Shown: positions 47,062 to 64,000 of the stretch, piece after piece | How positions within the stretch are numbered: position 1 is the stretch's first letter | Layout of the letters: each line of letters starts with the position of its first letter | From: Longimicrobiales bacterium | Lineage (GTDB): Bacteria; Gemmatimonadota; Gemmatimonadetes; Longimicrobiales; Gaopeijiaceae | Direction of reading: 5' to 3' | NCBI GenBank assembly: GCA_965219445.1 | Contig: CBDCNQ010000005.1 | Span: 448,001-512,000, forward strand | DNA: 64,000 nucleotides | Notes under the pieces: generated by a model | Databases searched by the model: none | What the model was told of the DNA's origin: nothing | What the model saw: only the letters and a program-made list of their open reading frames with translations | Program-made: the position numbers and the translations under genes

Positions 47062-47099
47062 CACCGTCCACGAGCAGTGCCAACTGGCGGCATATGAAT

Positions 47100-47471
47100 C
47101 TATATAGCAGGTCGGTCGAAGAAGGTACGCCGGCACCTGATCAGGCCGTCTTCAAACCGAAAGAAGTCTGCATACCGCTCTTTCAAAGCACTCCCGTCCC
47201 GATGCAGTCCTTCAAAGAGCCCCCAACATGCGACGGTATCCCGATCACTGAGTGCGCAGCGCACGGTGTGTCGCCCCCATCTTATTGGGCGCTCCTCCCG
47301 ATAAAACTGTAGGAGCTCCGTCCGCCCGACCATCCGAGGATAGCCCGGACGTTCATAGATTACATCGCGGTGGAAGATTCGCCCTAGTTCGCGCCAGTCA
47401 CAAGCATCAATCACCGCATACAACCCGATGATGTTCGCTTTATAGCCTTCACAACGAAGCGGTGACTCCAT
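47100..47471 (-). CDS. SnoaL/NTF2-like protein
   Basis: LYAVIDACDW...IFHRDVIYERPG...ADFFRFEDGLI; 123 aa; immediately after the TE-bearing NRPS. Confidence 0.8.
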   Translation of the reverse strand: MESPLRCEGYKANIIGLYAVIDACDWRELGRIFHRDVIYERPGYPRMVGRTELLQFYREERPIRWGRHTVRCALSDRDTVACWGLFEGLHRDGSALKERYADFFRFEDGLIRCRRTFFDRPAI

Positions 47472-47527: not shown

Positions 47528-50500
47528 CTACGCCGAACCGCATTGTCTCGCCATCACGAGAACGGTCCGAAGTTCCTCGGCCACCGCACCCACAAAAGGC
47601 TCCTTCATGATTTCGTTGTGAATGCACGGGACCTGCCTGATAACGAGCGAACCGTCTATCAGGCGCTGCCAGTACGGGGCGGGCTCCTCACCCGTGGGCA
47701 GGGGTTCGTTCGAAGCGCGAAGGAACAACACATCCCCTCTGAAGCGCGTCGGTCTGTACTGCAGCCATGCGCTTCGATTCCGTTCGTACACTGCTAGTCG
47801 CTCAGCCCTGCTCTCGGGAGCCGACATACGGGCCAGTTCCGACCGGGCGACAGCAAGTTGCTCATCCGGTGACATGCCCTCCAGCTTGTCAAGGAAGCCG
47901 GAACCTGTCAAATCGCTCATAATAGCCATTATTGGTGCAACATGATTTATCTGCTCACCGACATAGCCTCGACAGTCAATGAGCGTCAAGGAGCCAACAA
48001 CCTTCTTTACTGCCTCCAACTGGAGAGCCATCTCATAGGCTATCACGCCGCCGAACGACCACCCAACAAGGTTCAGCGGATCAGCGAGGCCCCGAGTGCG
48101 AATCTCCTCCACGTAATCCCTGGCCATTACCTCGACCGTTCCATGTCGCGCGAAGCGCGGGCTTTCGCAAGACGTGGCACGTATACCGAAGACATTGAAA
48201 TCCTTAGCGAGCAACTTACTCAGCGCCTCATAGGAGAGTACGCCGGCCCCCACCGCATGAGGGCAGATCACACTCGCCATTCCGATCTTCTCTGTGGTCA
48301 GAGCGACAACGAGGGGCGGCTCACCCACGCTGACTGGCAGCGTGTCGCCGAGACCGCCTGCAAGTGCTCTTACTGTACCAGAGGAGTAGAATGCTTCCAG
48401 GGACGGACTGGCGCCCAGGCGTGCTTGGATCAGGTCGGACACTCGCATCGCCAGAAGCGAATGGCCACCGAGTTCGAAGAAGTTGTCATGGATCCCGATT
48501 TCCTCGACCCCGAGAACCTCGCTCCAGATCTCGGCGATCACCTTTTCGACCCGCGTCCGAGGCTCCACGTACTCGGCGAGTCCATCTCTTTGGTTCGTCG
48601 GCTCCGGTAGGCTGGCCCGGTCGATCTTGCCACTCGGGTTCAGTGGCAACTCGTCCAGTGCCACCAAATAGTTCGGCACCATGAACTCAGGAAGTCGATC
48701 GCGCAGATACCGACGCACTTCGCCCGTCCCATCCGCCCTTCCCTCCAACACCACATACCCAACCAGTTTTCGGTCCCCCTCCTCGTCCTCCTGCACTACC
48801 ACCACCGCGTCACGCACCCGCTCGTGACCCATCAGCACCGACTCGACCTCGCCCGGCTCGATCCGAAATCCTCGCACCTTCACCTGATCGTCGAACCGCC
48901 CCAGGAATTCCAACTGCCCATCTGAGCGCCACCGCACACGATCCCCCGTCACGTACAAACGCTCCCCCCTCTCGCCAAACGGGTTCGGCACGAACCGCTC
49001 CGCTGTCAGGCCTGCTCGACCCCAGTACCCCCGAGCTAAACCCGCACCTCCGATGTACAACTCGCCCGCCACACCCACCGCCACCAACTGCATCCCCCCG
49101 TCCAGCACGTACAACGTCCATCCCGGTAATGGACGGCCGATCGCGCTGTGTCTCGTTGCACTCTCCTTAACATCCAATCTCTTGAGCGTACTGTGGACAG
49201 TCGCTTCTGTGATCCCGTACATATTGCACAAGATCAGGTCGCTGTCCGCACGCTCCCGAAGCCAATCCTGAGTGCTCGTTACGTCCAGCGCTTCACCGCC
49301 CAGCACCACATATTTCACGCCACTTAGAAACGCCTCATCGCACTGACCATCGACGTTCCTGAGCTCCATGAACGCCGAAGGCGTTTGGTTGACGATAGTA
49401 ATTCCCTCGTCGCGAATAAACTCACCAAACGCTGTCGCCGACCTGCTTACCCAGAACGGCACAATGACCAGTCGAGATCCGTGAAGCAGCGCGCCCCATA
49501 TCTCCCACACGGAAAAGTCGAACGCATAGGAGTGGAATAGCGGCCAAGTATCCGATTCATCGAACCGAAAATGATGATCCGTGGCCCTGAAGAGCCCCGC
49601 CACTGCACCGTGCGGGATCAGAACACCTTTCGGGGTACCCGTGGAGCCGGAGGTGTAGATGATATAGGCCAGGTTCTCGGGATCGACCGGCACCTGCAGA
49701 TTCATCGTATCCGCGGTATCGAAGATCGGCTCCTCTCGATCGAGGTACACGACTTCCACGGCCAGTGACGGTACCCGGTCCACCAGACGCCGCTGCGTCA
49801 GTAATACCTCGACCTCACTGTCCTCCGCCATGAATGCCCGCCGCTTCGGCGGATAGTCAGGATCTAGTGGCACATACGCTCCGCCCGCCTTCAATGCCCC
49901 CAACATCCCCACTACCAACTCCATCCCACGCTCTACACACAGCCCTACCCGTACTTCCGGACCCACACCCAGCCGCCTCAGTTGATGCGCAACCTGATTC
50001 GCCCGCTCGTTCAGCTCTCTGTACGTATACCGCTCCCCCTCACACTCCACTGCAATCCCTTCCGGCGTTCGCTCCACCTGCCCTTCGAACAGCTCGTGAA
50101 CACTCGCCTCCGGATACGATACCCCCGTCTCGTTCCACTCCTCCAACAGCTGCCGACGCTCGTCTTCACCCAGCATCGCCATCTCATAAATCGGACACTC
50201 CACATCCTCCACCACACTCTCCAACAACCGCCCGTAATGTCCCATCATCCGCTCGATCGTCGCGCTATCGAACAGGTCCGTGCTGTACTCGAGCCAACCT
50301 CTTAGGCCCTGGGGATTGCGCACTACAAAGACTTGTAGATCGAACTTGGAAGACTTGTACGAAGTCGTCGTCCGTCGGAGATCTATGGCGCCGCCAAGCC
50401 GCCGAACCGAGTCACTCGCGATGGGCATCGAAAACATCACCTGGAAGACCGGATTGTACGCCGGACTCCGTTCGACGTTGAGCTCCTCCACCAGCTTCGC

Positions 50501-53500
50501 GAACGGCAGATCCTGATGCTCGTACGCCTCCAGCGTCGTCTCACGAATCCGTCGCAGCACCTCCCGGAAGCTCGGCTCCCCCGACAGATCCGTCCGCAGC
50601 GCTAGCGTGTTGACAAAACAGCCAATAATGGGGTCCAGCGTCGGCTCGATCCGGCCGGACGAGACCGAGCCTACAACGACATCTTCCTGTCCCGAATACC
50701 GAGCTATCAGAACCTTGAACGCCGCCAGCAACACCATGAACAGCGTCGCACCTTCTTCCCGACCCAGCCGCTCGAGTGGCTGGGCCAAGGTCGGATAATC
50801 GAAGTGTAGGAAGGTGCCTCGGTGACTCTGAACCGCCGGCCGGGCTCGATCCGTCGGCAACTCCAACAACTCCGGAGCCCCCGATAACTTCCCCTTCCAG
50901 TACGTCAGCTGCCTCGCTAGCTCCCCACCCTCCAACCACTCTCGCTGCCACATGGCGTAGTCCGCATACTGCACCGGTAGCTCAGGCAATGGTGACGTCG
51001 CCGAACCACCCCCGTACGCCTCGTACAGCACACTCAACTCCCGGAACAGTACATCCATGCTCCATCCATCACTCACAATGTGATGCATCGACAGAAGCAG
51101 GACATGCTCCGAATCGGACAACCTCAATAGCTCCGCCCGGAACAGTGGCCCTCGCTCCAGATCGAAGCCCCGCCCCGCCATCTCCTCCGCCCGCCGCCGA
51201 ATCTCCTCCTCCAACTCCGCCCCACCCAGACCCGTCAGATCCTCCCGCGGTAACTCCCACCCCCCAGCCTCTCCCACCACCTGCCAAGGCTCCCCGTCAA
51301 TCTCCACAAACGTCGTTCGCAACGACTCATGCCGACCGATCACCTCCCCAATCGCCCACTCTAACCCCCCAACATCCAACACCCCAGACAGACGAACTCC
51401 ATTATTGATGACGTATGTCGCCCGACCTCGCACGAGCCGCTCGAGGATGAACATCTGTCGCTGCGCATACGATGCAGGGGTGGGTCCTGCCTCGCGGAGT
51501 CTCGGAACCAACCGGGGCCGCGGACTAACCCGAGTCGTTCGCAACTTCCGTACAAGGGCCGCTATCGCACCGATGGTTCTCTTCTCGAAGACGGCCTGAA
51601 CCGGGAGCCCGACACCCAACGCGTCCCGGATCCGCCAAGCGAGACGGGTGGCAGTGAAGGACGTGCCTCCCACCGAAAAGAAGTCATCCGAAAGCGACAA
51701 GCTTGTCGCTCCGGTCACTTCCCGCACCAGCTCCACCAGGAGGCTCTCGATGAGCTCGTACCGTGCAGAGCTACGCTCCCAGTTGGCGTGCCTGAGCCGT
51801 TTCTCGACTTGCCAACCCAGTTCGCGGCGATCAACCTTCCCCGTTGTCGTGGTGGGAAGGCTGTCGACAATGATAATCCCATGAGGGATCATGAAGCTCG
51901 GCATGCGGTCTGTGAGCCACTCGCGCAAATCCCGCTCGTCGATCAAACCGGACGCCCTGGGAATGACAAATGCTATGGGCTCAACACCACGGCTCCCACC
52001 CACGTCGCTCACGACAGCGCAAGCTTTAATATCTGGGTGGGATGATATCATGCTCTCTACCTCTCCTAGTTCCACTCGGAATCCGCGGACCTTCACCTGA
52101 GCATCCACCCGTCCGTGAAACTCTAGCACACCCTTCGGCATCCATCGCACAAGGTCCCCAGTCCGGTAAAGTCGACCACCAGCTTCACCGAAGAGGTCGG
52201 GAACGAACCGTGCCGCTGTAAGGCCGGCGCGGCGCGCGTAGCCTCGGGCAACTGCGGCGCCCCCGACATAGAGCTCGCCCCGCACCCCCACCGGAACCGG
52301 TTGCATCCATTGATCCAACACAAAGCACTTTCTGTCACCGACAGGTTGCCCAATCGGGATCGAGAGCGGGAGAGTGTCGTTGCGGATTTCACCACCGATC
52401 AAGTGGCAGGTAGCGAACACGGTGCATTCGGACGGCCCATATCCGTTGATCACTATCATGTCCGGGTACTCGGTCATCAACGCGTGCACATGTAGTGGAG
52501 AGAGAGACTCCCCCCCCACCAAGATGAGTCGCAATGACCCTAGGATTTCCACCGCAGTGTCGACGATCTCGTTGAAGAGGGACGCAGTCAGCCAAAGATG
52601 TGTAACCGCACCTCTACGAAGGGCGTCGGCAAAATTCGGAAGACTGATTCCACCCTCAGCCGTAGGTGGCACTATTTCGACACGTCCACCACGGAGAAGC
52701 GGGGTCCAGACCTCCAACGTGAGCGCGTCCCAGGAAATCGCGGAATAGTGCGCCCATACCTCAGGAATCAGCTCAAGCGAGTCTGTGTGGAGATCGAAGT
52801 TCTCATGGATGAATCCCGGTATCGCACTATGGTGGACAAGGGTGCCTTTCGGGGTACCCGTGGAGCCGGAGGTGTAGATGATATAGGCCAGGTTCTCGGG
52901 ATCGACCGGCACCTGCAGATTCATCGTATCCGCAGTATCGAAGATCGGCTCCTCTCGATCGAGGTACACGACTTCCACGGCCAGTGACGGTACCCGGTCC
53001 ACCAGACGCCGCTGCGTCAGTAATACCTCGACCTCACTGTCCTCCGCCATGAATGCCAGCCGCTTCGGCGGATAATCAGGATCTAGTGGCACATACGCTC
53101 CGCCCGCCTTCAATGCCCCCAACATCCCCACTACCAACTCCATCCCACGCTCTACACACAGCCCTACCCGTACTTCCGGACCCACACCCAGCCGCCTCAG
53201 TTGATGCGCAACCTGATTCGCCCGCTCGTTCAGCTCTCTGTACGTATACCGCTCCCCCTCACACTCCACTGCAATCCCTTCCGGCGTTCGCTCCACCTGC
53301 CCTTCGAACAGCTCGTGAACACTCGCCTCCGGATACGATACCCCCGTCTCGTTCCACTCCTCCAACAGCTGCCGACGCTCGTCTTCACCCAGCATCGCCA
53401 TCTCATAAATCGGACACTCCACATCCTCCACCACACTCTCCAACAACCGCCCGTAATGTCCCATCATCCGCTCGATCGTCGCGCTATCGAACAGGTCCGT

Positions 53501-56500
53501 GCTGTATCCACAGCTGCCCACAACCGACCCGTCCTCCTTCTCCACAAGCATCGCAACCAGATCGAACTTGGCAGTGTGACTGTCTGTCGAAACCGACGTC
53601 GCCTCCAGTTCACCCAGCTTGAGCGCTCGCTTCTCCGGACTGCGGAGCGTGAACATCACCTGGAAGACCGGATGATGTGCCAGACTCCGTTCGACGTTGA
53701 GCTCCTCGACCAGCTTCTCGAACGGCAGATCCTGATGCTCGTACGCGTCTAGCGTCGTCTCACGAACCCGTCGCAGCACCTCCCGGAAGCTTGGCTCCCC
53801 CGATAGATCCGTCCGTAGCGCTAGCGTGTTCAGGAAGAACCCGATCAGTCCTTCGAATTCCTCTCGGCTACGGTTCGCGATCACAGTCCCGACGACGACA
53901 TCTTCCTGTCCCGAATACCGAGCCATCAGAACCTTGAACGCCGCCAGCAACACCATGAACAGCGTCGCACCTTCTTCCCGACCCAAAGCCCGCAAACCCT
54001 CCACCACCTCCGCTGGGATATCGAACCGCTCGCGCCCCCCTCGGTGACTCTGAACCGCCGGCCGGGCTCGATCCGTCGGCAACTCCAACAACTCCGGAGC
54101 CCCCGATAACTTCCCCTTCCAGTACGTCAGCTGCCTCGCTAGCTCCCCACCCTCCAACCACTCTCGCTGCCACATGGCGTAGTCCGCATACTGCACCGGT
54201 AGCTCAGGCAATGGTGACGTCGCCGAACCACCCCCGTACGCCTCGTACAGCACACTCAACTCCCGGAACAGTACATCCATGCTCCATCCATCACTCACAA
54301 TGTGATGCATCGACAGAAGCAGGACATGCTCCGAATCGGACAACCTCAATAGCTCCGCCCGGAACAGTGGCCCTCGCTCCAGATCGAAGCCCCACCCCGC
54401 CATCTCCTCCGCCCGCCGCCGAATCTCCTCCTCCAACTCCGCCCCACCCAGACCCGTCAGATCCTCCCGCGGTAACTCCCACCCCCCAGCCTCTCCCACC
54501 ACCTGCCAAGGCTCCCCGTCAATCTCCACAAACGTCGTTCGCAACGACTCATGCCGACCGATCACCTCCCCAATCGCCCACTCTAACCCCCCAACATCCA
54601 ACACCCCAGACAGACGAACTCCCTTCGACACGGTGTAAAACGCATCGCCAGGATACATACGATCCAAAAACCACAGCCGCTCCTGTGCGTGCGAAAGCCG
54701 GGACGGCTCGGGCCTTCTGACCCGAAGGTGGCGGTCGGGGAGGGCCTCATCGTCCCTAGAGTGCCTTCCTCCTTCTCGGATCGTAGCCGCGAGTGCCTCC
54801 AGCGTTGAAAAACGAAACACCACATCGAGCGTTAATCGAATGCCCATGTCCGACCGCACTTGTGCGACCAAGCGCATGGCGCTGAGCGACGTCCCTCCGA
54901 GGAGAAAGAAGTCATCAGTCCGCTTCACCGCCTGCAGGCCCAAAAGATCTCCCCAAACCTTCGCGAGATACGCCTCGAGGGGAGCCAACTCGGAACGATG
55001 GGCAACTTGGGGCCCGGAGGTGAGACCGAGTTCTCGGTCCGCCCACTCGACGAGAGCCTTGTAGTCGGTCTTGCCTCGCTCTGTCGTCGGCAGGCTCGGG
55101 AGCGCAAACACATGAGTGGGAACCATGTAACGGGGAATGAGGCGCACCGCCCAATCCGCCAGGTCAGTCGAAGCAAGATCGAGCGAGACGTCGATGGATT
55201 CGCGATCGCCTAAGCGTACGAAAGCGCAGAGTTGCGGTGACTCGCCACGCTCGCCGACCAAACAAACCCGGACCTCGCGTATCGCCGGGTGACGTTCCAG
55301 TACTCGCTCTACCTCGTCGAGCTCGACGCGAAATCCCCTCAGCTTGACCTGCCGATCACGCCTCCCCAGAAAATGGAGGTGGCCGTCCGGACCGATCGTG
55401 GCCAAATCACCCGTACGGTACATCCGGCTCCCCGGACCGTGCTCCGCGAACGGGTCAGGAAGGAAGCTCGCGGCCGTTGCAGCTGGTGCATTCACATAGC
55501 CCTGGGCGACACCGTGGCCACTCAGATACACCTCCCCCGCAATCCCTATTGCCGTCGGCTTCAGCTCTTCGTCAAGAACATATGCACTCGTGCCTCGGAT
55601 TGGACGCCCGATTGGTGGCGCTTCGCAACCCTTATCCACCTGCTCCATAGGCACTTCGAAGGCGGTGGAATAGGTCGTGTCCTCGGAGGGACCGTAGAGG
55701 TTGAACAACCGCCCCTCAAAGCCAGACCGCCTCAGGGCGATCGCAAGGGTACCGGAAAAAACCTCTCCACAAAGGCAGATCACGCGCAGAGTATCCGGTA
55801 GACCCACCGAGTCGAGTAGTGCTGCCGCTGCAGACGGCACGGTGTTGAGAAACGTAACGCGACCTAGGCTTGGTTCGGCGCCAATATCGAGTGCGTCTTC
55901 TTTCAAGAGAACGCAGCCGCCCATCGAAAGGGTGCCGAAAACCTCGAACACTGACAGGTCAAACGACACCGATGTCGTGGCCAACATCCCCTCAAAGTCG
56001 GCCGGCGAGAACGTGGCCCTGGTCCACTCGAGCAAGGCGGCGAGGCCGCGGTGCTCGATCCCGACACCCTTCGGTTTCCCGGTAGATCCCGACGTGTAGA
56101 CTACATACGCGAGGGCGTTGAGAGACGGCTCCCCCATCGTCGGATCGAAGGTTCCATCGCTCCCGGCAATGAGGCTCTCGAAAGCCCGCCATTCCTGCGG
56201 CTGTTCCTTGCCAAGTTCTTCGATGGTACGCGCTTCGGCTACGACAAGCCGAACAGAGGCGTCGCTCAGAATCGCCCGCACGCGGCTATCCGGCACCTCA
56301 GGTCCGATCGGCACATAACAGCGTTGTGCGGCCAGGCACCCGAGCAGACTCACGATCAACCGATGGTCCCGCGGCAGCAGTATTGCGACAAGGTCGTCCC
56401 GCGACACCCCGGCCGTCAGAACGCCATCGGCGAAGTCAACGGCCATTCCACGTAGCTCGGCGTAGGTAAGAACTCTCGCCCCCGCCTCGACCGCCGGACG

Positions 56501-57949
56501 ATACCCCCACATGCGCGCAGCGGAGTCGAAAGCGCTCCAGCCTGTCATGCCGATGGGCTCGTCCTCGATTACGGCGCCACTCAACCCGCCTTCGCGAAGA
56601 TTGGGTGCGTGAGAGTGCTGCTGCCGGAGCGCCGAGCGGTCGGGGGTTTCGGACATCTGCGTGAAGATCTCTGAAAGCTCTGCCAGAAATGACGCGATCA
56701 ATGCCTCGCCAAGGCACGCTTGGTGTTCGAACGTAACAGTTACTCGAGTACCTAACTCGCGGAAATACACGAAGAGCAACATCTTGGCGTCGGCCGGCTG
56801 CATTGCAGCCACGCGCATCCTGACATCGCCCAAGCCCCGTTGAGGACCGTCTTGCTCCGTCCCCGACTGCATGGCACACATCACCTGAAAGATGGGCGTC
56901 CGGGTCAGGTCCCGAACTCCGGGGAGCTCCTCGACCAGCTTCTCGAACGGCAGATCCTGATGCTCGTACGCGTCTAGCGTCGTCTCACGAACCCGTCGCA
57001 GCACCTCCCGGAAGCTTGGCTCCCCCGATAGATCCGTCCGTAGCGCTAGCGTGTTCAGGAAACTCCCGATCAATCCTTGAAGATCAGGGTGGTTACGGTT
57101 CGCGATCACAGTCCCGACGACGACATCTTCCTGTCCCGAATACCGAGCCATCAGAACCTTGAACGCCGCCAGCAACACCATGAACAGCGTCGCACCTTCT
57201 TCCCGACCCAAAGCCCGCAAACCCTCCATCACCTCCGCTGGGATATCGAACCGCTCGCGCCCCCCTCGGTGACTCTGAACCGCCGGCCGGGCTCGATCCG
57301 TCGGCAACTCCAACAACTCCGGAGCCCCCGATAACTTCCCCTTCCAGTACGTCAGCTGCCTCGCTAGCTCCCCACCCTCCAACCACTCTCGCTGCCACAT
57401 GGCGTAGTCCGCATACTGCACCGGTAGCTCAGGCAATGGTGACGTCGCCGAACCACCCCCGTACGCCTCGTACAGCACACTCAACTCCCGGAACAGTACA
57501 TCCATGCTCCATCCATCACTCACAATGTGATGCATCGACAGAAGCAGGACATGCTCCGAATCGGACAACCTCAATAGCTCCGCCCGGAACAGTGGCCCTC
57601 GCTCCAGATCGAAGCCCCGCCCCGCCATCTCCTCCGCCCGCCGCCGAATCTCCTCCTCCAACTCCGCCCCACCCAGACCCGTCAGATCCTCCCGCGGTAA
57701 CTCCCACCCCCCAGCCTCTCCCACCACCTGCCAAGGCTCCCCGTCAATCTCCACAAACGTCGTTCGCAACGACTCATGCCGACCGATCACCTCCCCAATC
57801 GCCCACTCTAACCCCCCAACATCCAACACCCCAGACAGCTCTATGACGCGGCCAGTGTTGTATCGATCGCTCTCCGGCACAATCTGGTGTAATAGCCAGA
57901 AGCGTCTCTGTGACCACGAGCAGGGAAAGCGGGTCTCTCGTGGCTTCAT
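47528..57949 (-). CDS. Terminal NRPS, C-A-T-C-A-T-C-A-T-TE (Ala-like, Val-like, Thr)
   Basis: Three HHIVSDG, three YTSGSTGxPKG, T motifs GGTS/GGTS/GGHS, TE GWSFGG; hand-read codes DLFNCCLTYK, DALWLGGVFK, DFWNVGMVHK. Confidence 0.97.
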   Translation of the reverse strand: MKPRETRFPCSWSQRRFWLLHQIVPESDRYNTGRVIELSGVLDVGGLEWAIGEVIGRHESLRTTFVEIDGEPWQVVGEAGGWELPREDLTGLGGAELEEEIRRRAEEMAGRGFDLERGPLFRAELLRLSDSEHVLLLSMHHIVSDGWSMDVLFRELSVLYEAYGGGSATSPLPELPVQYADYAMWQREWLEGGELARQLTYWKGKLSGAPELLELPTDRARPAVQSHRGGRERFDIPAEVMEGLRALGREEGATLFMVLLAAFKVLMARYSGQEDVVVGTVIANRNHPDLQGLIGSFLNTLALRTDLSGEPSFREVLRRVRETTLDAYEHQDLPFEKLVEELPGVRDLTRTPIFQVMCAMQSGTEQDGPQRGLGDVRMRVAAMQPADAKMLLFVYFRELGTRVTVTFEHQACLGEALIASFLAELSEIFTQMSETPDRSALRQQHSHAPNLREGGLSGAVIEDEPIGMTGWSAFDSAARMWGYRPAVEAGARVLTYAELRGMAVDFADGVLTAGVSRDDLVAILLPRDHRLIVSLLGCLAAQRCYVPIGPEVPDSRVRAILSDASVRLVVAEARTIEELGKEQPQEWRAFESLIAGSDGTFDPTMGEPSLNALAYVVYTSGSTGKPKGVGIEHRGLAALLEWTRATFSPADFEGMLATTSVSFDLSVFEVFGTLSMGGCVLLKEDALDIGAEPSLGRVTFLNTVPSAAAALLDSVGLPDTLRVICLCGEVFSGTLAIALRRSGFEGRLFNLYGPSEDTTYSTAFEVPMEQVDKGCEAPPIGRPIRGTSAYVLDEELKPTAIGIAGEVYLSGHGVAQGYVNAPAATAASFLPDPFAEHGPGSRMYRTGDLATIGPDGHLHFLGRRDRQVKLRGFRVELDEVERVLERHPAIREVRVCLVGERGESPQLCAFVRLGDRESIDVSLDLASTDLADWAVRLIPRYMVPTHVFALPSLPTTERGKTDYKALVEWADRELGLTSGPQVAHRSELAPLEAYLAKVWGDLLGLQAVKRTDDFFLLGGTSLSAMRLVAQVRSDMGIRLTLDVVFRFSTLEALAATIREGGRHSRDDEALPDRHLRVRRPEPSRLSHAQERLWFLDRMYPGDAFYTVSKGVRLSGVLDVGGLEWAIGEVIGRHESLRTTFVEIDGEPWQVVGEAGGWELPREDLTGLGGAELEEEIRRRAEEMAGWGFDLERGPLFRAELLRLSDSEHVLLLSMHHIVSDGWSMDVLFRELSVLYEAYGGGSATSPLPELPVQYADYAMWQREWLEGGELARQLTYWKGKLSGAPELLELPTDRARPAVQSHRGGRERFDIPAEVVEGLRALGREEGATLFMVLLAAFKVLMARYSGQEDVVVGTVIANRSREEFEGLIGFFLNTLALRTDLSGEPSFREVLRRVRETTLDAYEHQDLPFEKLVEELNVERSLAHHPVFQVMFTLRSPEKRALKLGELEATSVSTDSHTAKFDLVAMLVEKEDGSVVGSCGYSTDLFDSATIERMMGHYGRLLESVVEDVECPIYEMAMLGEDERRQLLEEWNETGVSYPEASVHELFEGQVERTPEGIAVECEGERYTYRELNERANQVAHQLRRLGVGPEVRVGLCVERGMELVVGMLGALKAGGAYVPLDPDYPPKRLAFMAEDSEVEVLLTQRRLVDRVPSLAVEVVYLDREEPIFDTADTMNLQVPVDPENLAYIIYTSGSTGTPKGTLVHHSAIPGFIHENFDLHTDSLELIPEVWAHYSAISWDALTLEVWTPLLRGGRVEIVPPTAEGGISLPNFADALRRGAVTHLWLTASLFNEIVDTAVEILGSLRLILVGGESLSPLHVHALMTEYPDMIVINGYGPSECTVFATCHLIGGEIRNDTLPLSIPIGQPVGDRKCFVLDQWMQPVPVGVRGELYVGGAAVARGYARRAGLTAARFVPDLFGEAGGRLYRTGDLVRWMPKGVLEFHGRVDAQVKVRGFRVELGEVESMISSHPDIKACAVVSDVGGSRGVEPIAFVIPRASGLIDERDLREWLTDRMPSFMIPHGIIIVDSLPTTTTGKVDRRELGWQVEKRLRHANWERSSARYELIESLLVELVREVTGATSLSLSDDFFSVGGTSFTATRLAWRIRDALGVGLPVQAVFEKRTIGAIAALVRKLRTTRVSPRPRLVPRLREAGPTPASYAQRQMFILERLVRGRATYVINNGVRLSGVLDVGGLEWAIGEVIGRHESLRTTFVEIDGEPWQVVGEAGGWELPREDLTGLGGAELEEEIRRRAEEMAGRGFDLERGPLFRAELLRLSDSEHVLLLSMHHIVSDGWSMDVLFRELSVLYEAYGGGSATSPLPELPVQYADYAMWQREWLEGGELARQLTYWKGKLSGAPELLELPTDRARPAVQSHRGTFLHFDYPTLAQPLERLGREEGATLFMVLLAAFKVLIARYSGQEDVVVGSVSSGRIEPTLDPIIGCFVNTLALRTDLSGEPSFREVLRRIRETTLEAYEHQDLPFAKLVEELNVERSPAYNPVFQVMFSMPIASDSVRRLGGAIDLRRTTTSYKSSKFDLQVFVVRNPQGLRGWLEYSTDLFDSATIERMMGHYGRLLESVVEDVECPIYEMAMLGEDERRQLLEEWNETGVSYPEASVHELFEGQVERTPEGIAVECEGERYTYRELNERANQVAHQLRRLGVGPEVRVGLCVERGMELVVGMLGALKAGGAYVPLDPDYPPKRRAFMAEDSEVEVLLTQRRLVDRVPSLAVEVVYLDREEPIFDTADTMNLQVPVDPENLAYIIYTSGSTGTPKGVLIPHGAVAGLFRATDHHFRFDESDTWPLFHSYAFDFSVWEIWGALLHGSRLVIVPFWVSRSATAFGEFIRDEGITIVNQTPSAFMELRNVDGQCDEAFLSGVKYVVLGGEALDVTSTQDWLRERADSDLILCNMYGITEATVHSTLKRLDVKESATRHSAIGRPLPGWTLYVLDGGMQLVAVGVAGELYIGGAGLARGYWGRAGLTAERFVPNPFGERGERLYVTGDRVRWRSDGQLEFLGRFDDQVKVRGFRIEPGEVESVLMGHERVRDAVVVVQEDEEGDRKLVGYVVLEGRADGTGEVRRYLRDRLPEFMVPNYLVALDELPLNPSGKIDRASLPEPTNQRDGLAEYVEPRTRVEKVIAEIWSEVLGVEEIGIHDNFFELGGHSLLAMRVSDLIQARLGASPSLEAFYSSGTVRALAGGLGDTLPVSVGEPPLVVALTTEKIGMASVICPHAVGAGVLSYEALSKLLAKDFNVFGIRATSCESPRFARHGTVEVMARDYVEEIRTRGLADPLNLVGWSFGGVIAYEMALQLEAVKKVVGSLTLIDCRGYVGEQINHVAPIMAIMSDLTGSGFLDKLEGMSPDEQLAVARSELARMSAPESRAERLAVYERNRSAWLQYRPTRFRGDVLFLRASNEPLPTGEEPAPYWQRLIDGSLVIRQVPCIHNEIMKEPFVGAVAEELRTVLVMARQCGSA
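48450..48882. repeat. At least 433-bp repeat of 63568-64000 (A-sub + T N-half)
   Basis: Offset 15118; identity ends just after GGHSLLA and runs off the window end. Confidence 0.93.
49626..50287. repeat. 662-bp near-identical repeat of 52845-53506 (C-terminal C, linker, A up to the A3 motif)
   Basis: Offset 3219; identity ends at GSTGTPKG; a few substitutions. Confidence 0.93.
50817..51400. repeat. NRPS C-domain core cassette, four near-identical copies (50817-51400, 54039-54622, 57264-57838, 62746-63329)
   Basis: Same nucleotide sequence at constant offsets; isolated substitutions only (AGR vs AGW codon). Confidence 0.95.
53559..54699. repeat. 1141-bp near-identical repeat of 62266-63406
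   Basis: Offset 8707; one substitution noticed (HQD/HQN). Confidence 0.93.
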
Positions 57950-59229
57950 GACTCGCGCTTTGAGCTTGTTGACGCGAGATTCTCCGGATCCGAGTCCAAG
58001 CCCGCGCTACTCAAGAGACTCAGAAGGGACAAGGCCTCGAGCGCGGGAGTGGCATACCGCCCATAGCTAGCGAGATCTTCCGTCAAGCGAGGTACCAGGT
58101 CGCGGCGTCCGTCCCGTGCCCACATCGCGAACGGAACAGGTTCGGGGTCATGGGAGGCGCGCCTCGGGCCGGCGGTCCTTGTCCTGTGGGAGCTGGTGTT
58201 CGTGTAATGATCAGGAACGACAACTAGAGTGCCGAGCCGGTCCGGATGGTTTTGGAAGTACCTCACCACGGGTGCCACGACGCATCTGTCGAACCGCTCG
58301 ATCGACCAAACTTTGGCTCTGAAGTCCCCCTCGTGTGCGGCCTCGTCTGGCGCGTTCACATGACACAGGACGAACCGGTAGCCCCGTTTCAGAAGTTCGA
58401 GGGTTTGTCGCCCTTTCTCTACATATGACGTGTCGACGCGTCCGTTGCCGATCTTGTAGAAATCCATCCCTCCGGCACTGCAGATACCACCTAGAAAATC
58501 CATGGCGCCAACGATCGCAGCCGGGGCTGTCCATTCGTGCCGGCTCTCGAGACGGGGCAGCTCGATGTCCTTCGATGGACTCCATGGCCACAAGAAGTTC
58601 GCCCGACAGCCATCAAGCACCTTCGCGACATTATTGCAGAATCCCATCAGCATCACACACACATCTTCTGCGGCCGGACCGTTCGAGGTACAGAGCTCAC
58701 CGAGCTTGGTCCGACACCCCTGCACCTCGTGAGGCTCTAAGAGCCTCAGGTCTGCCGGGTCAACACCCGCACACCGTATTCTGAGCAGACAGCGGTAATC
58801 GCTCATATGGAGGAGGGCTATGCGGGGATACGTCTCTCTGACGCGATCGCAGACCTTATCCACCAGCGCCGACGCTTCGCCTGTGCCTATGGCATGGGCA
58901 CTGAAACTGGCGAGCCGCCCTGCGCGCAGATGACAGAGATTCGCTCGAAACACCAGTTCTTGCGGCTCTGGCACCAAGCCCATTCCACGTAGCTCCATCG
59001 CTGCTCGCCCGCCAGGATTGTACCTGCGCGGATCCCAGCCTAAGAGGGCAAGATGTGCCGTCAGACTTCCATGGTCGACGCCAGAGTAAAGTGTCTTTAT
59101 GCGACCGACCACCCCACTGGACGCTATGGTGTCGATCCATCTCGTTTTGGCAGCCGCGAGCGGCGTTAATAGAGATTCACGTACCCGGTCCGCAGCCCCA
59201 TCGGGTACGAGGACCACATGCTGCCTCAT
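57946..59229 (-). CDS. ApgM-type cofactor-independent phosphoglycerate mutase-like metalloenzyme
   Basis: VPDGAAD, TPL, GS catalytic Ser, GWDP, GRA, FRAN, PDEAAHEGD, PDHYT, HDPEPVPF; ATGA overlaps on both sides. Confidence 0.85.
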   Translation of the reverse strand: MRQHVVLVPDGAADRVRESLLTPLAAAKTRWIDTIASSGVVGRIKTLYSGVDHGSLTAHLALLGWDPRRYNPGGRAAMELRGMGLVPEPQELVFRANLCHLRAGRLASFSAHAIGTGEASALVDKVCDRVRETYPRIALLHMSDYRCLLRIRCAGVDPADLRLLEPHEVQGCRTKLGELCTSNGPAAEDVCVMLMGFCNNVAKVLDGCRANFLWPWSPSKDIELPRLESRHEWTAPAAIVGAMDFLGGICSAGGMDFYKIGNGRVDTSYVEKGRQTLELLKRGYRFVLCHVNAPDEAAHEGDFRAKVWSIERFDRCVVAPVVRYFQNHPDRLGTLVVVPDHYTNTSSHRTRTAGPRRASHDPEPVPFAMWARDGRRDLVPRLTEDLASYGRYATPALEALSLLSLLSSAGLDSDPENLASTSSKRES

Positions 59230-60164
59230 GATCGGGGCGAGGTTGTGCGCAACCGGCTCCTGTACTCCTCCAAGGTCGCCATACCCTTCCAGCCGGCGTC
59301 ACCCGAAATGGCGACAACACACGCCGCCTCGTCCCCAAGCTCATTGGCCAATTCCGTTGCAATGGCCGCCACTCCTCCCGTTTGGATTCCACAGAACATA
59401 CCTTCGCCCTTGAGGCACTCACACCAGTCGCTAGCCTCCTGCCACCCAACCGAGCGTATCTCGTCAATGCAGCCCTGCTTCTGCGCCTTGGTGATGAACG
59501 GGGTGACGTAGTCGCCGTCATCGAAGCTACCGGTCCCCGGAATCCGGCTGCCCTTCGAAGCCTTGACTCCGACGATCCGAACGAGGGAGGCCCGTTCTTT
59601 GAAGAAGCGCGAGACCCCTGCGACCGTGCCACCGGAACCGAGAGATCCCACGATCGCAGTCACTGCCGGCAAACCTTTAAGAATCTCCGGACCTGTTGTT
59701 CTGTAGTGGGCAAGCGGATTGGCGGGATTGTGCAACTGGTCCAAGAAAAGGACATCCGGAGCGCCGGCAGCCACGTGGTCTCGGCACCATCGGTTCCCTT
59801 CTATCGTGAAGTGTCCGAGTTCTTTGACCTCGGCATCGTAGTAGTCGAGGAGAGTTCGCTTCTCGTGGGTGATCTTTGAACTCACCACTACTTTCGCTCG
59901 TAGCCCGAGGGCAGCAGCAAGGAATGCCATCGAACATGCGAAATTGCCACTCGAGGCATCCAGCAACGTTGCACCGGGACACAACCGGCCGTCCAGCTCG
60001 GCCTCCAACAAGATGGAGAGCGCGGTCCGATCCTTCAGGCTACCGGTCGGATTCGAACCTTCGAGTTTGAGGAACACCCTCGCGCTGCCGGATCTACGTA
60101 GGCCCCGCAGTTCAACGAGTGGTGTGTTGCCGATCAGATCGGCCATGTCCCGCAGGCTCCTCAA
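59226..60164 (-). CDS. PLP-dependent cysteine-synthase-family enzyme
   Basis: IGNTPLVEL, KLEGSNPTGSLKDR, SSGN, HYRTTGPEI, GSGGT. Confidence 0.92.
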   Translation of the reverse strand: MRSLRDMADLIGNTPLVELRGLRRSGSARVFLKLEGSNPTGSLKDRTALSILLEAELDGRLCPGATLLDASSGNFACSMAFLAAALGLRAKVVVSSKITHEKRTLLDYYDAEVKELGHFTIEGNRWCRDHVAAGAPDVLFLDQLHNPANPLAHYRTTGPEILKGLPAVTAIVGSLGSGGTVAGVSRFFKERASLVRIVGVKASKGSRIPGTGSFDDGDYVTPFITKAQKQGCIDEIRSVGWQEASDWCECLKGEGMFCGIQTGGVAAIATELANELGDEAACVVAISGDAGWKGMATLEEYRSRLRTTSPRS

Positions 60165-60194
60165 CGGTGCCCCCCTGACGTGGTCATGATTCGC

Positions 60195-63100
60195 TTAGCG
60201 TCTCCGCCTCAGGACAGGCCTCGCGTGAGCTCTTCCCGGGCCATGTGCTCGGTGACGCTCGACAAGGTTCGCCATCTCCGAAAGCGTAGAGGCTTGAAAA
60301 ATCTGTCGGACGGATAAGACAGTCCCAACGTCTCTCTCGAGATCAGCCAGCAGCCGAATCACCGCAAGTGAGTTGCCGCCCACTGAGAAGAAGTCGGCTT
60401 CCCTGTCTATCGAACCCACGGGCGAGGAAATTGCGCGTGACCAGGACGCCCACAGCTGCATCTCGAGATCTGAGGCTGGACCACATCGCGAGACATCGGG
60501 TTCGCCAATCCGTGCCCGTGCGATCTCCCTGAGAGCCCGTTCATCGCGCTTGCCGTTAGTTGTCACAGGCACCTGCTCGACCTGCCACATGTAGGTCGGC
60601 ACCATGTAGTCGGGCAATCTAGACATAAGCATACGGCGGTGCTCCGTTATGTCGAGTTCGCCCGGTCCGGCCGAGCGAAGAAACGCGGCTAGCTTCGCAG
60701 CTCCTTGACCATCTGTGTCGAGAACGTGGATACAAGCGGCATCGCCGACGGTGGCAGCGAGCATCAGGGCATGCTCTATCTCTTTCAGATCAACTCGAAA
60801 GCCACGGAGTTTGACCTGGGAGTCATGTCGCCCCTCGAAGAAGATCTCACCATCCGCGTTCACGCGACCTCTGTCGCCGGTCACATACATCCGGGTGCCC
60901 GACTCACTCCAGAACGGATCCGGAATGAAACGCTCGGCCGTGGGGCCCGGTTCGCCAGCGTAGCCGCGGGCCAGCCGATTGCCCCCGATGTAGATGTCCC
61001 CAATCATCCCCTCCGGAACGGGGTTCAGATGGCGGTCGAGCACGTATATTGCGGCATCCGTTAGTGGGGCCCCAAGGGGAACGCCGCGGTGCGCGTTACC
61101 CCAATCCAGTTCCGTCCTGATCTCGTACATCGAGATCGCCACGCTGGTTTCTGTCGCCCCATAGTGATTGAAGATCCTTAGATTTGGCGAAACCGCCTTC
61201 AGAGATCTCAACCAACTTCTTTCGGCTGCCTCTCCTCCGATCACCAAGTGATGGTTGGGGAGGGCGTCAGGGTTGGGCGGGGAGCCCAGGAGAGCCTTCA
61301 GATGAGAAGGCACGATCTTGAGACCGCTGATGTTGTAGCACTTCATATACTGGGCGAACGCGCGGCCGTCGAGCGCGATCGACTCCGGCACAATGTAGAG
61401 TGTACCCGCTGCGTAGGCTGCGCCGAAGATTTGGGAAACCACCGAATCGAAGGATAGAGGCTGAACCAACGCGAACCTTGCCCCGGGCTCGACCTGCAGT
61501 CGTTGCAGGAGGCCCTCCACGTACCTTGCCAGCTCAGCATGTGCGATCAGAACGCCTTTCGGCGTTCCGGTGGTGCCCGACGTGAAGATCGCGTACGCCA
61601 AGTTCTCCGAATGGGTCCGAACGGGGGACAGATCGACTGCGGTATCGTGAGCCGCACTCAACCGTACGCGTAGCGAGGGCGCTGGCACCAAGGTCGCATC
61701 CCTCTTGTCAGTCAACACCAAGTCAAGGCTCAGGGTCTCTATCGCTTGTCTGAGCCGAGTATTCGGAGATCGTACGTCCAACGGCACGAAAGCCGCTCCT
61801 GCGCACAGCGTCCCCCAGATCGCGACGATCGCCTCAGCGGACCGATCCATGAGGATCCCTACTCTCCGTTCGGGCCCGAGATCGCTTGCCACCAGTTTGC
61901 TAGCAAGCATAAGCGCTTGTTGGCGGAGTTCCTGATAGGTGAGGCTTCGCCCGGCATCGACTATAGCCAGATCGTCGCCATGTCGTTTCGCTACATCTTC
62001 AAGAACATCGATAGCCAAGCGCATCCCACCGTTTCCGCAGTCGGGGTTTTGCTGTAGTGCGAGAGCGTGATGTTCGCGACGATGGGGCGAGTCCAGGGGA
62101 ATCAACCAGACTGACTCTGAGGAATCTTCCACAGCCGCCCGCAGGACTGCCTGAAAGTGATCCGAAAGCCGGGCTACGGTTGCGGGAGTGAAGCAGTTGG
62201 CATTGAACTCCAGAGTCGCGTGTGTCTTGTCGGCGTTGTTCCGGGAAGTCAGGATTCGGAGTGCGAGATCGAACTTGGCAGTGTGACTGTCTGTCGAAAC
62301 CGACGTCGCCTCCAGTTCACCCAGCTTGAGCGCTCGCTTCTCCGGACTGCGGAGCGTGAACATCACCTGGAAGACCGGATGATGTGCCAGACTCCGTTCG
62401 ACGTTGAGCTCCTCGACCAGCTTCTCGAACGGCAGATTCTGATGCTCGTACGCGTCTAGCGTCGTCTCACGAACCCGTCGCAGCACCTCCCGGAAGCTTG
62501 GCTCCCCCGATAGATCCGTCCGTAGCGCTAGCGTGTTCAGGAAGAACCCGATCAGTCCTTCGAATTCCTCTCGGCTACGGTTCGCGATCACAGTCCCGAC
62601 GACGACATCTTCCTGTCCCGAATACCGAGCCATCAGAACCTTGAACGCCGCCAGCAACACCATGAACAGCGTCGCACCTTCTTCCCGACCCAAAGCCCGC
62701 AAACCCTCCACCACCTCCGCTGGGATATCGAACCGCTCGCGCCCCCCTCGGTGACTCTGAACCGCCGGCCGGGCTCGATCCGTCGGCAACTCCAACAACT
62801 CCGGAGCCCCCGATAACTTCCCCTTCCAGTACGTCAGCTGCCTCGCTAGCTCCCCACCCTCCAACCACTCTCGCTGCCACATGGCGTAGTCCGCATACTG
62901 CACCGGTAGCTCAGGCAATGGTGACGTCGCCGAACCACCCCCGTACGCCTCGTACAGCACACTCAACTCCCGGAACAGTACATCCATGCTCCATCCATCA
63001 CTCACAATGTGATGCATCGACAGAAGCAGGACATGCTCCGAATCGGACAACCTCAATAGCTCCGCCCGGAACAGTGGCCCTCGCTCCAGATCGAAGCCCC

Positions 63101-64000
63101 ACCCCGCCATCTCCTCCGCCCGCCGCCGAATCTCCTCCTCCAACTCCGCCCCACCCAGACCCGTCAGATCCTCCCGCGGTAACTCCCACCCCCCAGCCTC
63201 TCCCACCACCTGCCAAGGCTCCCCGTCAATCTCCACAAACGTCGTTCGCAACGACTCATGCCGACCGATCACCTCCCCAATCGCCCACTCTAACCCCCCA
63301 ACATCCAACACCCCAGACAGACGAACTCCCTTCGACACGGTGTAAAACGCATCGCCAGGATACATACGATCCAAAAACCACAGCCGCTCCTGTGCGTGCG
63401 AAAGCCACAAACGCTCCTCGCCCGGGGCTCGCCTCACCCCGCCCTCCTCGACGACCAGCCCACACTCGGCATCCTGCGCAAGAGACGCCACCTCAGGGCT
63501 CTCGAACATCCTCCGGAGCGGGACCTCCACACCAAGCTGGCTTCGGATACGCGTCTGGACCCGCGTGGCCAGAAGCGAATGGCCACCGAGTTCGAAGAAG
63601 TTGTCATGGATCCCGATTTCCTCGACCCCGAGAACCTCGCTCCAGATCTCGGCGATCACCTTTTCGACCCGCGTCCGAGGCTCCACGTACTCGGCGAGTC
63701 CATCTCTTTGGTTCGTCGGCTCCGGTAGGCTGGCCCGGTCGATCTTGCCACTCGGGTTCAGTGGCAACTCGTCCAGTGCCACCAAATAGTTCGGCACCAT
63801 GAACTCAGGAAGTCGATCGCGCAGATACCGACGCACTTCGCCCGTCCCATCCGCCCTTCCCTCCAACACCACATACCCAACCAGTTTTCGGTCCCCCTCC
63901 TCGTCCTCCTGCACTACCACCACCGCGTCACGCACCCGCTCGTGACCCATCAGCACCGACTCGACCTCGCCCGGCTCGATCCGAAATCCTCGCACCTTCA
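60195..64000 (-). CDS. Upstream NRPS, 3' part: (A)-T-C-A-T; continues beyond the window
   Basis: GGHS, HHIVSDG, FTSGTTGTPKG, GGNS; last A-domain code read by hand as DSSKVGHVAK. Confidence 0.96.
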   Translation of the reverse strand, partial: KVRGFRIEPGEVESVLMGHERVRDAVVVVQEDEEGDRKLVGYVVLEGRADGTGEVRRYLRDRLPEFMVPNYLVALDELPLNPSGKIDRASLPEPTNQRDGLAEYVEPRTRVEKVIAEIWSEVLGVEEIGIHDNFFELGGHSLLATRVQTRIRSQLGVEVPLRRMFESPEVASLAQDAECGLVVEEGGVRRAPGEERLWLSHAQERLWFLDRMYPGDAFYTVSKGVRLSGVLDVGGLEWAIGEVIGRHESLRTTFVEIDGEPWQVVGEAGGWELPREDLTGLGGAELEEEIRRRAEEMAGWGFDLERGPLFRAELLRLSDSEHVLLLSMHHIVSDGWSMDVLFRELSVLYEAYGGGSATSPLPELPVQYADYAMWQREWLEGGELARQLTYWKGKLSGAPELLELPTDRARPAVQSHRGGRERFDIPAEVVEGLRALGREEGATLFMVLLAAFKVLMARYSGQEDVVVGTVIANRSREEFEGLIGFFLNTLALRTDLSGEPSFREVLRRVRETTLDAYEHQNLPFEKLVEELNVERSLAHHPVFQVMFTLRSPEKRALKLGELEATSVSTDSHTAKFDLALRILTSRNNADKTHATLEFNANCFTPATVARLSDHFQAVLRAAVEDSSESVWLIPLDSPHRREHHALALQQNPDCGNGGMRLAIDVLEDVAKRHGDDLAIVDAGRSLTYQELRQQALMLASKLVASDLGPERRVGILMDRSAEAIVAIWGTLCAGAAFVPLDVRSPNTRLRQAIETLSLDLVLTDKRDATLVPAPSLRVRLSAAHDTAVDLSPVRTHSENLAYAIFTSGTTGTPKGVLIAHAELARYVEGLLQRLQVEPGARFALVQPLSFDSVVSQIFGAAYAAGTLYIVPESIALDGRAFAQYMKCYNISGLKIVPSHLKALLGSPPNPDALPNHHLVIGGEAAERSWLRSLKAVSPNLRIFNHYGATETSVAISMYEIRTELDWGNAHRGVPLGAPLTDAAIYVLDRHLNPVPEGMIGDIYIGGNRLARGYAGEPGPTAERFIPDPFWSESGTRMYVTGDRGRVNADGEIFFEGRHDSQVKLRGFRVDLKEIEHALMLAATVGDAACIHVLDTDGQGAAKLAAFLRSAGPGELDITEHRRMLMSRLPDYMVPTYMWQVEQVPVTTNGKRDERALREIARARIGEPDVSRCGPASDLEMQLWASWSRAISSPVGSIDREADFFSVGGNSLAVIRLLADLERDVGTVLSVRQIFQASTLSEMANLVERHRAHGPGRAHARPVLRRRR

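What the first reader, a model, noticed from the sequence alone, without database searches (positions are those of the whole stretch)
57946..62020. PLP enzyme + ApgM-like pair embedded in an NRPS operon beside an A domain with an atypical Asp-like code: candidate new amino-acid pathway
Seen: a cysteine-synthase-family gene and an ApgM-like gene are translationally coupled (ATGA overlaps) to each other and to the terminal NRPS, and they lie directly after a module whose code reads DSSKVGHVAK. Known: Lys278/His322 typify Asp-type pockets (DLTKVGHIGK). Cysteine-synthase paralogues such as SbnA and cysteate synthases do beta-replacement on O-phosphoserine, and ApgM enzymes move phosphate via a phosphoserine intermediate. 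Inference: the pair makes an anionic beta-substituted alanine (cysteate or another Asp isostere), with ApgM supplying 3-phosphoglycerate or phosphorylating the precursor. I do not recall a characterised NRPS cluster with this pair.
Basis: partly seen in the sequence, partly recalled or inferred. Interest (0 to 1): 0.8.

Follow-up and report, generated by a model that had tools for sequence, protein, structure and literature searches.

The report
New enzyme pair feeding sulfonated peptides
Two enzyme genes that recur together inside peptide assembly-line clusters of uncultured bacteria likely make a sulfonated amino acid (probably cysteate) for the neighbouring assembly step, using what is predicted to be an ATP-free amino-acid phosphotransferase of a type not found in the papers searched.

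Summary
Observation confirmed: PLP gene (59226-60146), ApgM-like gene (57946-59229), both ATGA overlaps, and the code DSSKVGHVAK. The pair is a conserved cassette: 41 of 74 metagenome loci with this ApgM subfamily carry the same PLP subfamily, 23 of those 41 lie in NRPS clusters, and in 9 of 10 loci where a module ends just before the PLP gene it reads DATK[L/M]GHVGK. The cysteate module of discodermin reads DSTKIGHVGK. Both enzymes form their own clades below all curated family cut-offs. The ApgM protein keeps the catalytic Ser and metal ligands but has Asn where mutases have Lys and the homoserine phosphotransferase HomK has Glu. Elsewhere the same subfamily sits in the kinase slot of diaminobutyrate-type operons, and beside a ThrC-like enzyme plus CysH. 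So it likely phosphorylates a hydroxy amino acid rather than supplying 3-phosphoglycerate. Best reading (0.5): Ser to O-phosphoserine, plus sulfite, gives L-cysteate. Against: no sulfur-supply gene beside any pair, no characterised product, threonine as acceptor remains possible. Cysteate NRPS clusters are known; this enzyme pair was not found in the papers searched.

The parts
60195..64000 (-). 3' part of NRPS gene 3 (2175 aa, runs beyond the window to 66722): C-A(Thr)-PCP-C-A(DSSKVGHVAK)-PCP
60500..62012 (-). A domain predicted to load the cassette's product; code DSSKVGHVAK (specificity motifs at about 61451-61130); groups with DATK[L/M]GHVGK domains of other pair loci
60157..60162 (-). GAGGAG ribosome-binding-site-like motif 10 nt before ATG 60146
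59226..60146 (-). PLP-dependent beta-replacement enzyme, cysteine-synthase fold, own subfamily (sister to DabB/SbnA-like enzymes in my tree); candidate cysteate synthase
57946..59229 (-). ApgM-superfamily metalloenzyme, Asn292 subfamily (D10, S55, D295, H299, D340, H341, H360 kept); candidate Ser/Thr O-phosphotransferase
47528..57949 (-). Terminal NRPS, 3473 aa: three C-A-PCP modules (DLFNCCLTYK Ala-like, DALWLGGVFK Val-like, DFWNVGMVHK Thr) and TE
47100..47471 (-). SnoaL-like small protein, same operon direction
46282..47136 (-). Short-chain dehydrogenase/reductase; close relatives lie beside this ApgM subfamily in L050 and L074

Best explanation
The two genes form a conserved, mobile NRPS precursor cassette that likely makes L-cysteate: the ApgM-like protein is predicted to move a phosphate through its Ser55 onto free L-serine, the PLP enzyme would then swap that phosphate for sulfite, and the adjacent DSSKVGHVAK domain would load the product. 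Shown: gene order and coupling, intact catalytic residues, two distinct enzyme clades, recurrence of the pair, and its positional link to one A-domain type. Inferred: phosphotransferase rather than mutase activity (about 0.8), an O-phospho amino acid as PLP substrate (about 0.85), sulfite as nucleophile, and serine rather than threonine as acceptor. The phosphate donor is unknown. 3-Phosphoglycerate is an isostere of O-phosphoserine and is my guess. Sulfite would come from the genome's unlinked CysH. The predicted peptide is X-Pro-Thr-Cya-Ala-Val-Thr, with no epimerase domains seen.
For: Recurrence: 41 of 74 subfamily loci carry the PLP subfamily, 36 within 200 bp; 29 of 38 among loci with at least 1.2 kb on both sides; 23 of the 41 have NRPS C/A domains; at 70% identity these collapse to 17 pair clusters, 11 with NRPS, 6 with the code. 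12 of 18 pair loci with a readable code carry D[AG]TK[LMF]GHVGK, and so does the module directly before the PLP gene in 9 of 10. The window's domain joins that clade (98/93). The cysteate-loading discodermin module DscC_A8 reads DSTKIGHVGK, 7 of 10 positions identical to the window's (PMC12858407 supplement). ApgM: Asn292 aligns with HomK Glu299, where mutases have Lys (preprint 10.1101/2024.10.14.618325 App. 3; alignment); Asn in 75 of 75 database relatives. The clade is sister to HomK-type proteins. Where the PLP subfamily is absent, this ApgM lies beside DabB-like + ATP-grasp/argininosuccinate-lyase/threonine-aldolase genes (10 loci) with no GHMP kinase motif, i.e. in the slot of the Thr kinase DabA (PMC10906522), or before a ThrC-like enzyme and CysH (L063, L069). 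SbnI is a precedent for a dedicated O-phosphoserine supplier (PMC7139808). The genome has separate CBS-like, CysM-like and Lys-type ApgM genes and a CysH.
Against: No CysH homologue in any of 41 pair loci (504 kb, median 12.7 kb), and no sulfate-activation family among the neighbours scanned (a filtered subset of ORFs). The PLP enzyme scores only 129 of 600 bits on the CapA cysteate-synthase model and has Gly where E. coli CysM has Arg210 and M. tuberculosis CysM Arg220 (alignment; roles of those residues recalled). The L063/L069 partner is weak for both cysteate synthase (100/325, 91/325) and threonine synthase (111/303, 98/303), so it could use phosphohomoserine. The A clade also contains one canonical Asp code, DLTKIGHVGK, and Ala at 236 also occurs in an Asn code, DATKVGEVGK. 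The genome has SerA next to a class V aminotransferase, so O-phosphoserine may already be available; in Li et al. dedicated kinases mark threonine users. No member with a known product was found.
Confidence: 0.5

Rival explanations
1. Same chemistry on threonine: the ApgM-like protein makes O-phospho-L-threonine and the PLP enzyme adds sulfite (or another anion) to give 3-methylcysteate, a beta-methyl sulfonate amino acid.
For: A dedicated phosphorylating enzyme is most needed when the substrate is not a primary metabolite; kinases occur in 4 of 4 Dab and 0 of 5 Dap clusters in Li et al.. A subclade of this ApgM family sits with threonine aldolase and DabBC-like genes. The PLP clade's sister group is DabB-like, and DabB accepts both phospho-Thr and phospho-Ser.
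Against: Threonine aldolase is in 0 of 41 pair loci. The code resembles a cysteate module. No paper in the library holds the name of such a residue. SbnI shows serine pathways can have a dedicated kinase.
Confidence: 0.17
2. Phosphotransferase plus beta-replacement as above, but with another anionic nucleophile: thiosulfate (S-sulfocysteine), or a phosphorus, carbon or nitrogen anion giving another Asp isostere.
For: No sulfur-supply gene beside the pair. Closest solved structures are CysM enzymes, which use thiosulfate (established knowledge). A PhpK-family radical SAM gene above its cut-off lies between the two genes in L042 (near-identical genes in L044, L070).
Against: CysM Arg210 is absent. 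No PEP mutase or other phosphonate gene was seen among scanned neighbours. No gene for a special nucleophile is shared across pair loci, which fits a housekeeping anion such as sulfite.
Confidence: 0.18
3. The ApgM-like protein is a true phosphoglycerate mutase (or a phosphatase) that only raises flux to O-phosphoserine; the PLP enzyme still makes cysteate.
For: Its best NCBIfam score is the apgM mutase model (234 vs 205 bits for HomK); fold matches archaeal mutases.
Against: Both scores are below cut-off; the mutase Lys is Asn throughout the subfamily; a Lys-type paralogue exists in the genome; no SerA/SerC was seen among scanned neighbours.
Confidence: 0.08
4. The genes are cargo or ordinary cysteine/glycolysis paralogues and the module loads aspartate.
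For: The A clade includes a canonical Asp code; 18 of 41 pair loci show no NRPS C/A domain in the DNA held.
Against: Both enzymes form separate clades, are translationally coupled into the operon, and follow the same A-domain type in 9 of 10 cases. Many of the 18 loci are short.
Confidence: 0.05

Closest known systems
Cysteate-containing NRPS clusters: JBIR-78/95, cysteoamide, stenothricin, viennamycin, imacidin
   Same: Cluster-encoded cysteate biosynthesis feeding an Asp-like module (imacidin preprint section 6; the others seen only as reference titles).
   Different: These are actinomycete clusters. I could not read their gene lists; from recall they use a methanogen-type (threonine-synthase-like) cysteate synthase. 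The ApgM subfamily was found in 0 of 401 sampled Actinomycetota genomes.
Discodermin NRPS module DscC_A8 ('Ca. Entotheonella monilis')
   Same: Cysteate-loading module predicted as Asp, code DSTKIGHVGK (PMC12858407 passages and supplement table 7).
   Different: No cysteate genes were identified in that cluster or genome; here the candidate genes sit beside the module.
HomK (BT2402, TIGR02535), homoserine phosphotransferase
   Same: Same fold, catalytic Ser and metal ligands; sister clade; ATP-independent phosphorylation of an amino-acid hydroxyl proposed.
   Different: Glu299 is Asn here; 205 of 446 bits; secondary-metabolite context instead of thrA-thrC.
DabABC (Burkholderia monobactam; friulimicin, pacidamycin) and SbnI/SbnA/SbnB (staphyloferrin B)
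   Same: Phosphorylate Ser/Thr, then PLP beta-replacement by a cysteine-synthase paralogue.
   Different: They use ATP kinases and an amino-acid nucleophile plus a cleaving enzyme to give diamino acids. Here there is no lyase or dehydrogenase partner in pair loci (ASL 0 of 41; one SbnB-like OCD gene in L026) and the A pocket is acid-binding.
CapA (capnine) and MA3297 (coenzyme M) cysteate synthases
   Same: O-phosphoserine + sulfite to L-cysteate (MA3297: PMC12713407 passages; CapA reaction recalled).
   Different: 129 of 600 bits on CapA; TIGR03844 not among the 25 best families listed. It would be a further, independent cysteate synthase lineage.

Membership tests
Cysteine synthase CysK/CysM | Score above curated cut-off (TIGR01136/01138/01139, NF008735) | tested here: not met
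   205/344, 198/394, 169/351, 204/413
Cysteine synthase CysK/CysM | Fold-type II PLP fold with catalytic Lys, substrate loop and GxGGT loop | tested here: met
   K44, SSGN, GSGGT invariant; TM 0.83 to E. coli CysM
CysM / O-phosphoserine sulfhydrylase | Arg210 (E. coli) / Arg220 (M. tuberculosis); roles recalled | tested here: not met
   Gly212 in the window and most of the subfamily
SbnA / DabB diamino-acid synthases | TIGR03945 cut-off | tested here: not met
   157/350
SbnA / DabB diamino-acid synthases | SbnB or DabC cleaving partner in the operon | tested here: not met
   None in the window operon; ASL and ATP-grasp 0 of 41 pair loci
Cysteate synthases (CapA, TIGR03844) | Curated cut-off | tested here: not met
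   CapA 129/600; TIGR03844 not among the best 25 of 35 families
Cysteate synthases (CapA, TIGR03844) | O-phosphoserine + sulfite gives cysteate | not testable with these tools
   needs an assay
ApgM phosphoglycerate mutase (TIGR00306) | Catalytic Ser and two-metal ligand set | tested here: met
   D10, S55, D295, H299, D340, H341, H360
ApgM phosphoglycerate mutase (TIGR00306) | Cut-off and Lys at the specificity position | tested here: not met
   234/320; Asn292
HomK (TIGR02535) | Cut-off, Glu299, thr-operon context | tested here: not met
   205/446; Asn292; NRPS context
PhpG phosphonoformyl transferase | NF038358 cut-off | tested here: not met
   104/545
Asp-type NRPS A domain | Lys278 and His322 | tested here: met
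   DSSKVGHVAK
Cysteate-loading A domain | Activation of cysteate | tested here: inconclusive
   7 of 10 identical to DscC_A8; clade also holds an Asp code; no assay

The most novel reading that the evidence does not exclude
The Asn292 ApgM clade is an undescribed family of ATP-independent Ser/Thr O-phosphotransferases that replaces the kinase in at least three unrelated beta-replacement pathways, and with its PLP partner it makes a new NRPS building block, 3-methylcysteate (or another unreported anionic amino acid), in peptides of uncultured soil Gemmatimonadota and Acidobacteriota.
Probability: 0.25. Interest if true: 0.8.

Novelty: new variant of a known kind. Interest (0 to 1): 0.62.

Why it matters
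It gives a two-gene marker and an A-domain code (DATK[L/M]GHVGK) for likely sulfonated peptides that prediction tools would call Asp, in lineages rich in NRPS clusters but with no characterised product found here. It proposes a testable function for a clade annotated as phosphoglycerate mutase, with a single diagnostic residue (Lys mutase, Glu HomK, Asn this clade). It offers a candidate cysteate route that searches with known cysteate synthases would miss, which bears on the open origin of cysteate in discodermins.

Tried and rejected
Single-protein scan of species genomes: 17 loci, all ordinary CysK/CysM-like (at most 217 bits on the subfamily profile vs 285-562 for members). Genome samples: ApgM profile 1 of 401 in the own phylum at subfamily level (two others are HomK-type), PLP profile 1 of 201 in the own family, ApgM profile 0 of 401 around G551 and 0 of 401 around G552: not found in those searched; the cassette is rare per genome. 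Plasmid collection: no subfamily member of either enzyme, no annotated cysteate synthase, A-core hits uninformative. Ten paper searches: none returned this pair; code strings found nothing. The stenothricin paper was not held; JBIR, cysteoamide and viennamycin papers were seen only as titles; the imacidin supplement had no gene table hit; one discodermin supplement was a scan and not searched. No RNA holder listed. ESM Atlas gave only generic names. Earlier scan findings: nothing relevant. SerC model TIGR01364 found nothing in the genome, but an alternative aminotransferase is likely, so I draw nothing from it. TauD-family neighbours were not counted as sulfite sources; they look like NRPS hydroxylases (recalled). 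The metagenome loci could not be extended, and the PLP-to-ApgM direction of linkage was not scanned; 11 contig lengths shared between the two protein hit lists are only a hint. No profile search of the 50% representatives was obtained.
Full report
Anatomy. The window is G000:C5:448001-512000. On the - strand the operon runs MbtH-like gene (74292-74077, beyond the window), NRPS1 (73624-69524), NRPS2 (69527-66735), NRPS3 (66722-60195), PLP gene, ApgM-like gene, terminal NRPS (57949-47528), SnoaL-like gene, SDR, with IS remnants on both sides. The seven A-domain codes are DAAKLGLVNK, DVQFVAHVVK, DFWNVGMVHK, DSSKVGHVAK, DLFNCCLTYK, DALWLGGVFK, DFWNVGMVHK. Both ATGA overlaps are real; 48 nt separate NRPS3 from the PLP start. 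The stretch 57840-62260 lies in one short-read contig without differences.

Neither enzyme is housekeeping. The PLP protein is below every NCBIfam cut-off (CysM 204/413, SbnA 157/350, CapA 129/600) and so is the ApgM-like protein (apgM 234/320, HomK 205/446, PhpG 104/545). The genome has separate CBS-like and CysM-like genes and a Lys-type ApgM. In a FastTree of 85 rows the PLP subfamily is one clade (61 of 61, support 0.968), sister to four DabB/SbnA-like proteins (0.999), with its own motifs SK[LI]TxxK, DQLH and PGTGxFxxGDY. In a tree of 81 rows the window's ApgM and 64 metagenome proteins form one clade (0.968), sister to HomK-type proteins; the window's protein is the deepest, long branch. 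AlphaFold models (pLDDT 92, 89) match E. coli CysM and archaeal mutases, with no closer solved structure.

The pair recurs. A metagenome scan with the ApgM alignment kept 75 loci; L091 falls outside the clade and was dropped. Of 74, 41 carry the PLP subfamily, 36 within 200 bp; among the 38 loci with at least 1.2 kb on both sides, 29 do; 23 of the 41 show NRPS C or A domains. After clustering near-full-length ApgM sequences at 70% identity there are 17 pair clusters, 11 with NRPS and 6 with the code below. Of 18 pair loci with a readable A code, 12 carry D[AG]TK[LMF]GHVGK; where a module ends within 2.5 kb before the PLP gene it has this code in 9 of 10, the window's layout. The window's domain joins these in a 15-row clade (98/93) that also holds one DLTKIGHVGK. 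The cassette is rare per genome: found only in G000 among about 1,400 genomes searched.

What the ApgM-like protein does (inferred). A preprint (10.1101/2024.10.14.618325, Appendix 3 read) shows that BT2402/HomK replaces homoserine kinase and proposes Glu299 versus Lys as the residue separating it from mutases. A Bacteroides HomK fetched from a thrA-thrC operon has the same numbering; its Glu299 aligns with the window's Asn292. Asn is there in 65 of 65 near-full-length loci (including the outlier L091, so Asn is not unique to the clade) and 75 of 75 database relatives; the catalytic Ser and metal ligands are kept. Context without the PLP subfamily is informative. Ten loci (L027, 030, 036, 037, 043, 062, 071, 075, 076, 085) have DabB-like, ATP-grasp, argininosuccinate-lyase or threonine-aldolase genes. 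In Li et al. 2024 (PMC10906522; abstract, sections 6 and 14, passages) such operons need the Thr kinase DabA. No GHMP motif was found in any locus and no kinase family in 70 leftover ORFs of L037, L062, L075, L076 (E up to 1e-25); the loci are truncated, so this is absence in the DNA held. Two loci (L063, L069) read ApgM, ThrC-like PLP enzyme, CysH. Three different PLP partners whose characterised relatives consume O-phospho amino acids point to a phosphotransferase.

What the PLP enzyme makes (inferred). The A pocket has Lys278/His322, so the side chain is likely a short anion. The discodermin cysteate module reads DSTKIGHVGK and was predicted as Asp, with cysteate genes unidentified (PMC12858407 passages and supplement part 4). 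No cleaving partner or nucleophile-making gene is shared by pair loci, which fits a housekeeping anion; the genome has CysH beside a sulfite/nitrite-reductase-like gene. Invariant K97, K102 and K293 and a conserved K/R207 could bind anions. Sulfite on O-phosphoserine is established chemistry for MA3297. Against: CysH is in 0 of 41 pair loci, the CysM arginine is missing, the code is not diagnostic, and the kinase logic of Li et al. favours threonine. I give cysteate 0.5, a threonine-derived sulfonate 0.17, another nucleophile 0.18, mutase role 0.08, cargo 0.05.

Relation to what is known. Cysteate in NRPS peptides with cluster-encoded biosynthesis is in print (imacidin preprint section 6). I could not read the gene lists of those clusters, so an overlap cannot be excluded; supplements I could not see bear on this. 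Ten library searches returned no description of a cysteine-synthase paralogue paired with an ApgM-like gene in an NRPS cluster. It works like SbnI/SbnA or DabA/DabB followed by an Asp-type module, but is a member of none of those families by cut-off or partner genes.

Verdict. A real, intact, widespread but rare cassette; a new variant of a known kind of precursor pathway, with two apparently uncharacterised enzyme subfamilies and a cheap decisive assay. Interest 0.62.

Noticed in passing
window 48400-64000 and on to 73600: The NRPS modules are 97-99.9% identical in DNA over 0.6-2 kb blocks (C domains, A-domain ends, PCPs) while the A specificity cores differ: recent module duplication with core swaps, or homogenisation. 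Repeat assembly was not checked.
   Followed up: partly
G000:C5 521624 and 517527 (window 73624, 69527): NRPS1 and NRPS2 both start with only the second half of a C domain; NRPS1 ends with a full C domain.
   Followed up: no
L067, L068, L088 around the ApgM match: The same pair lies in AT-rich polysaccharide loci (NeuB, WbqC, flippase), followed by an asparagine-synthase-like gene: possibly amide-linking the amino acid to a surface polysaccharide.
   Followed up: partly
L063:9995-13197, L069:5434-8545: ApgM (Asn type), ThrC-like PLP enzyme and CysH in a row, outside any NRPS cluster: candidate separate cysteate or homocysteate operon.
   Followed up: partly
L042:4100-9832 (also L044, L070): PhpK-family B12 radical SAM gene (647/600 bits), stand-alone A-PCP (DIRNFGVDVK) and type II TE lie between the PLP and ApgM genes.
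   Followed up: no
L053:4771-11634 (also L056-L060, L081, L083): Pair flanked by a PQQ dehydrogenase, a 372-aa protein without Pfam hit that looks like an amidinotransferase (recalled motif) and a glycosyltransferase.
   Followed up: no
L002:5429-17561 (G000:C5 527500-539600): Upstream of the cluster, beyond IS elements: AroA paralogue, PhyH dioxygenase, SDR, MmgE/PrpD, homocitrate-synthase-like gene and another NRPS with code ALKNVSVLGK.
   Followed up: no
L079, L080 7700-16800; L061: Pair (L079, L080) or ApgM alone (L061) directly before a type I PKS, with aminotransferase and TauD genes upstream in L079/L080.
   Followed up: no
L091:9881-11281: ApgM relative with Asn at the specificity position but Ala in place of the catalytic Ser.
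   Followed up: no
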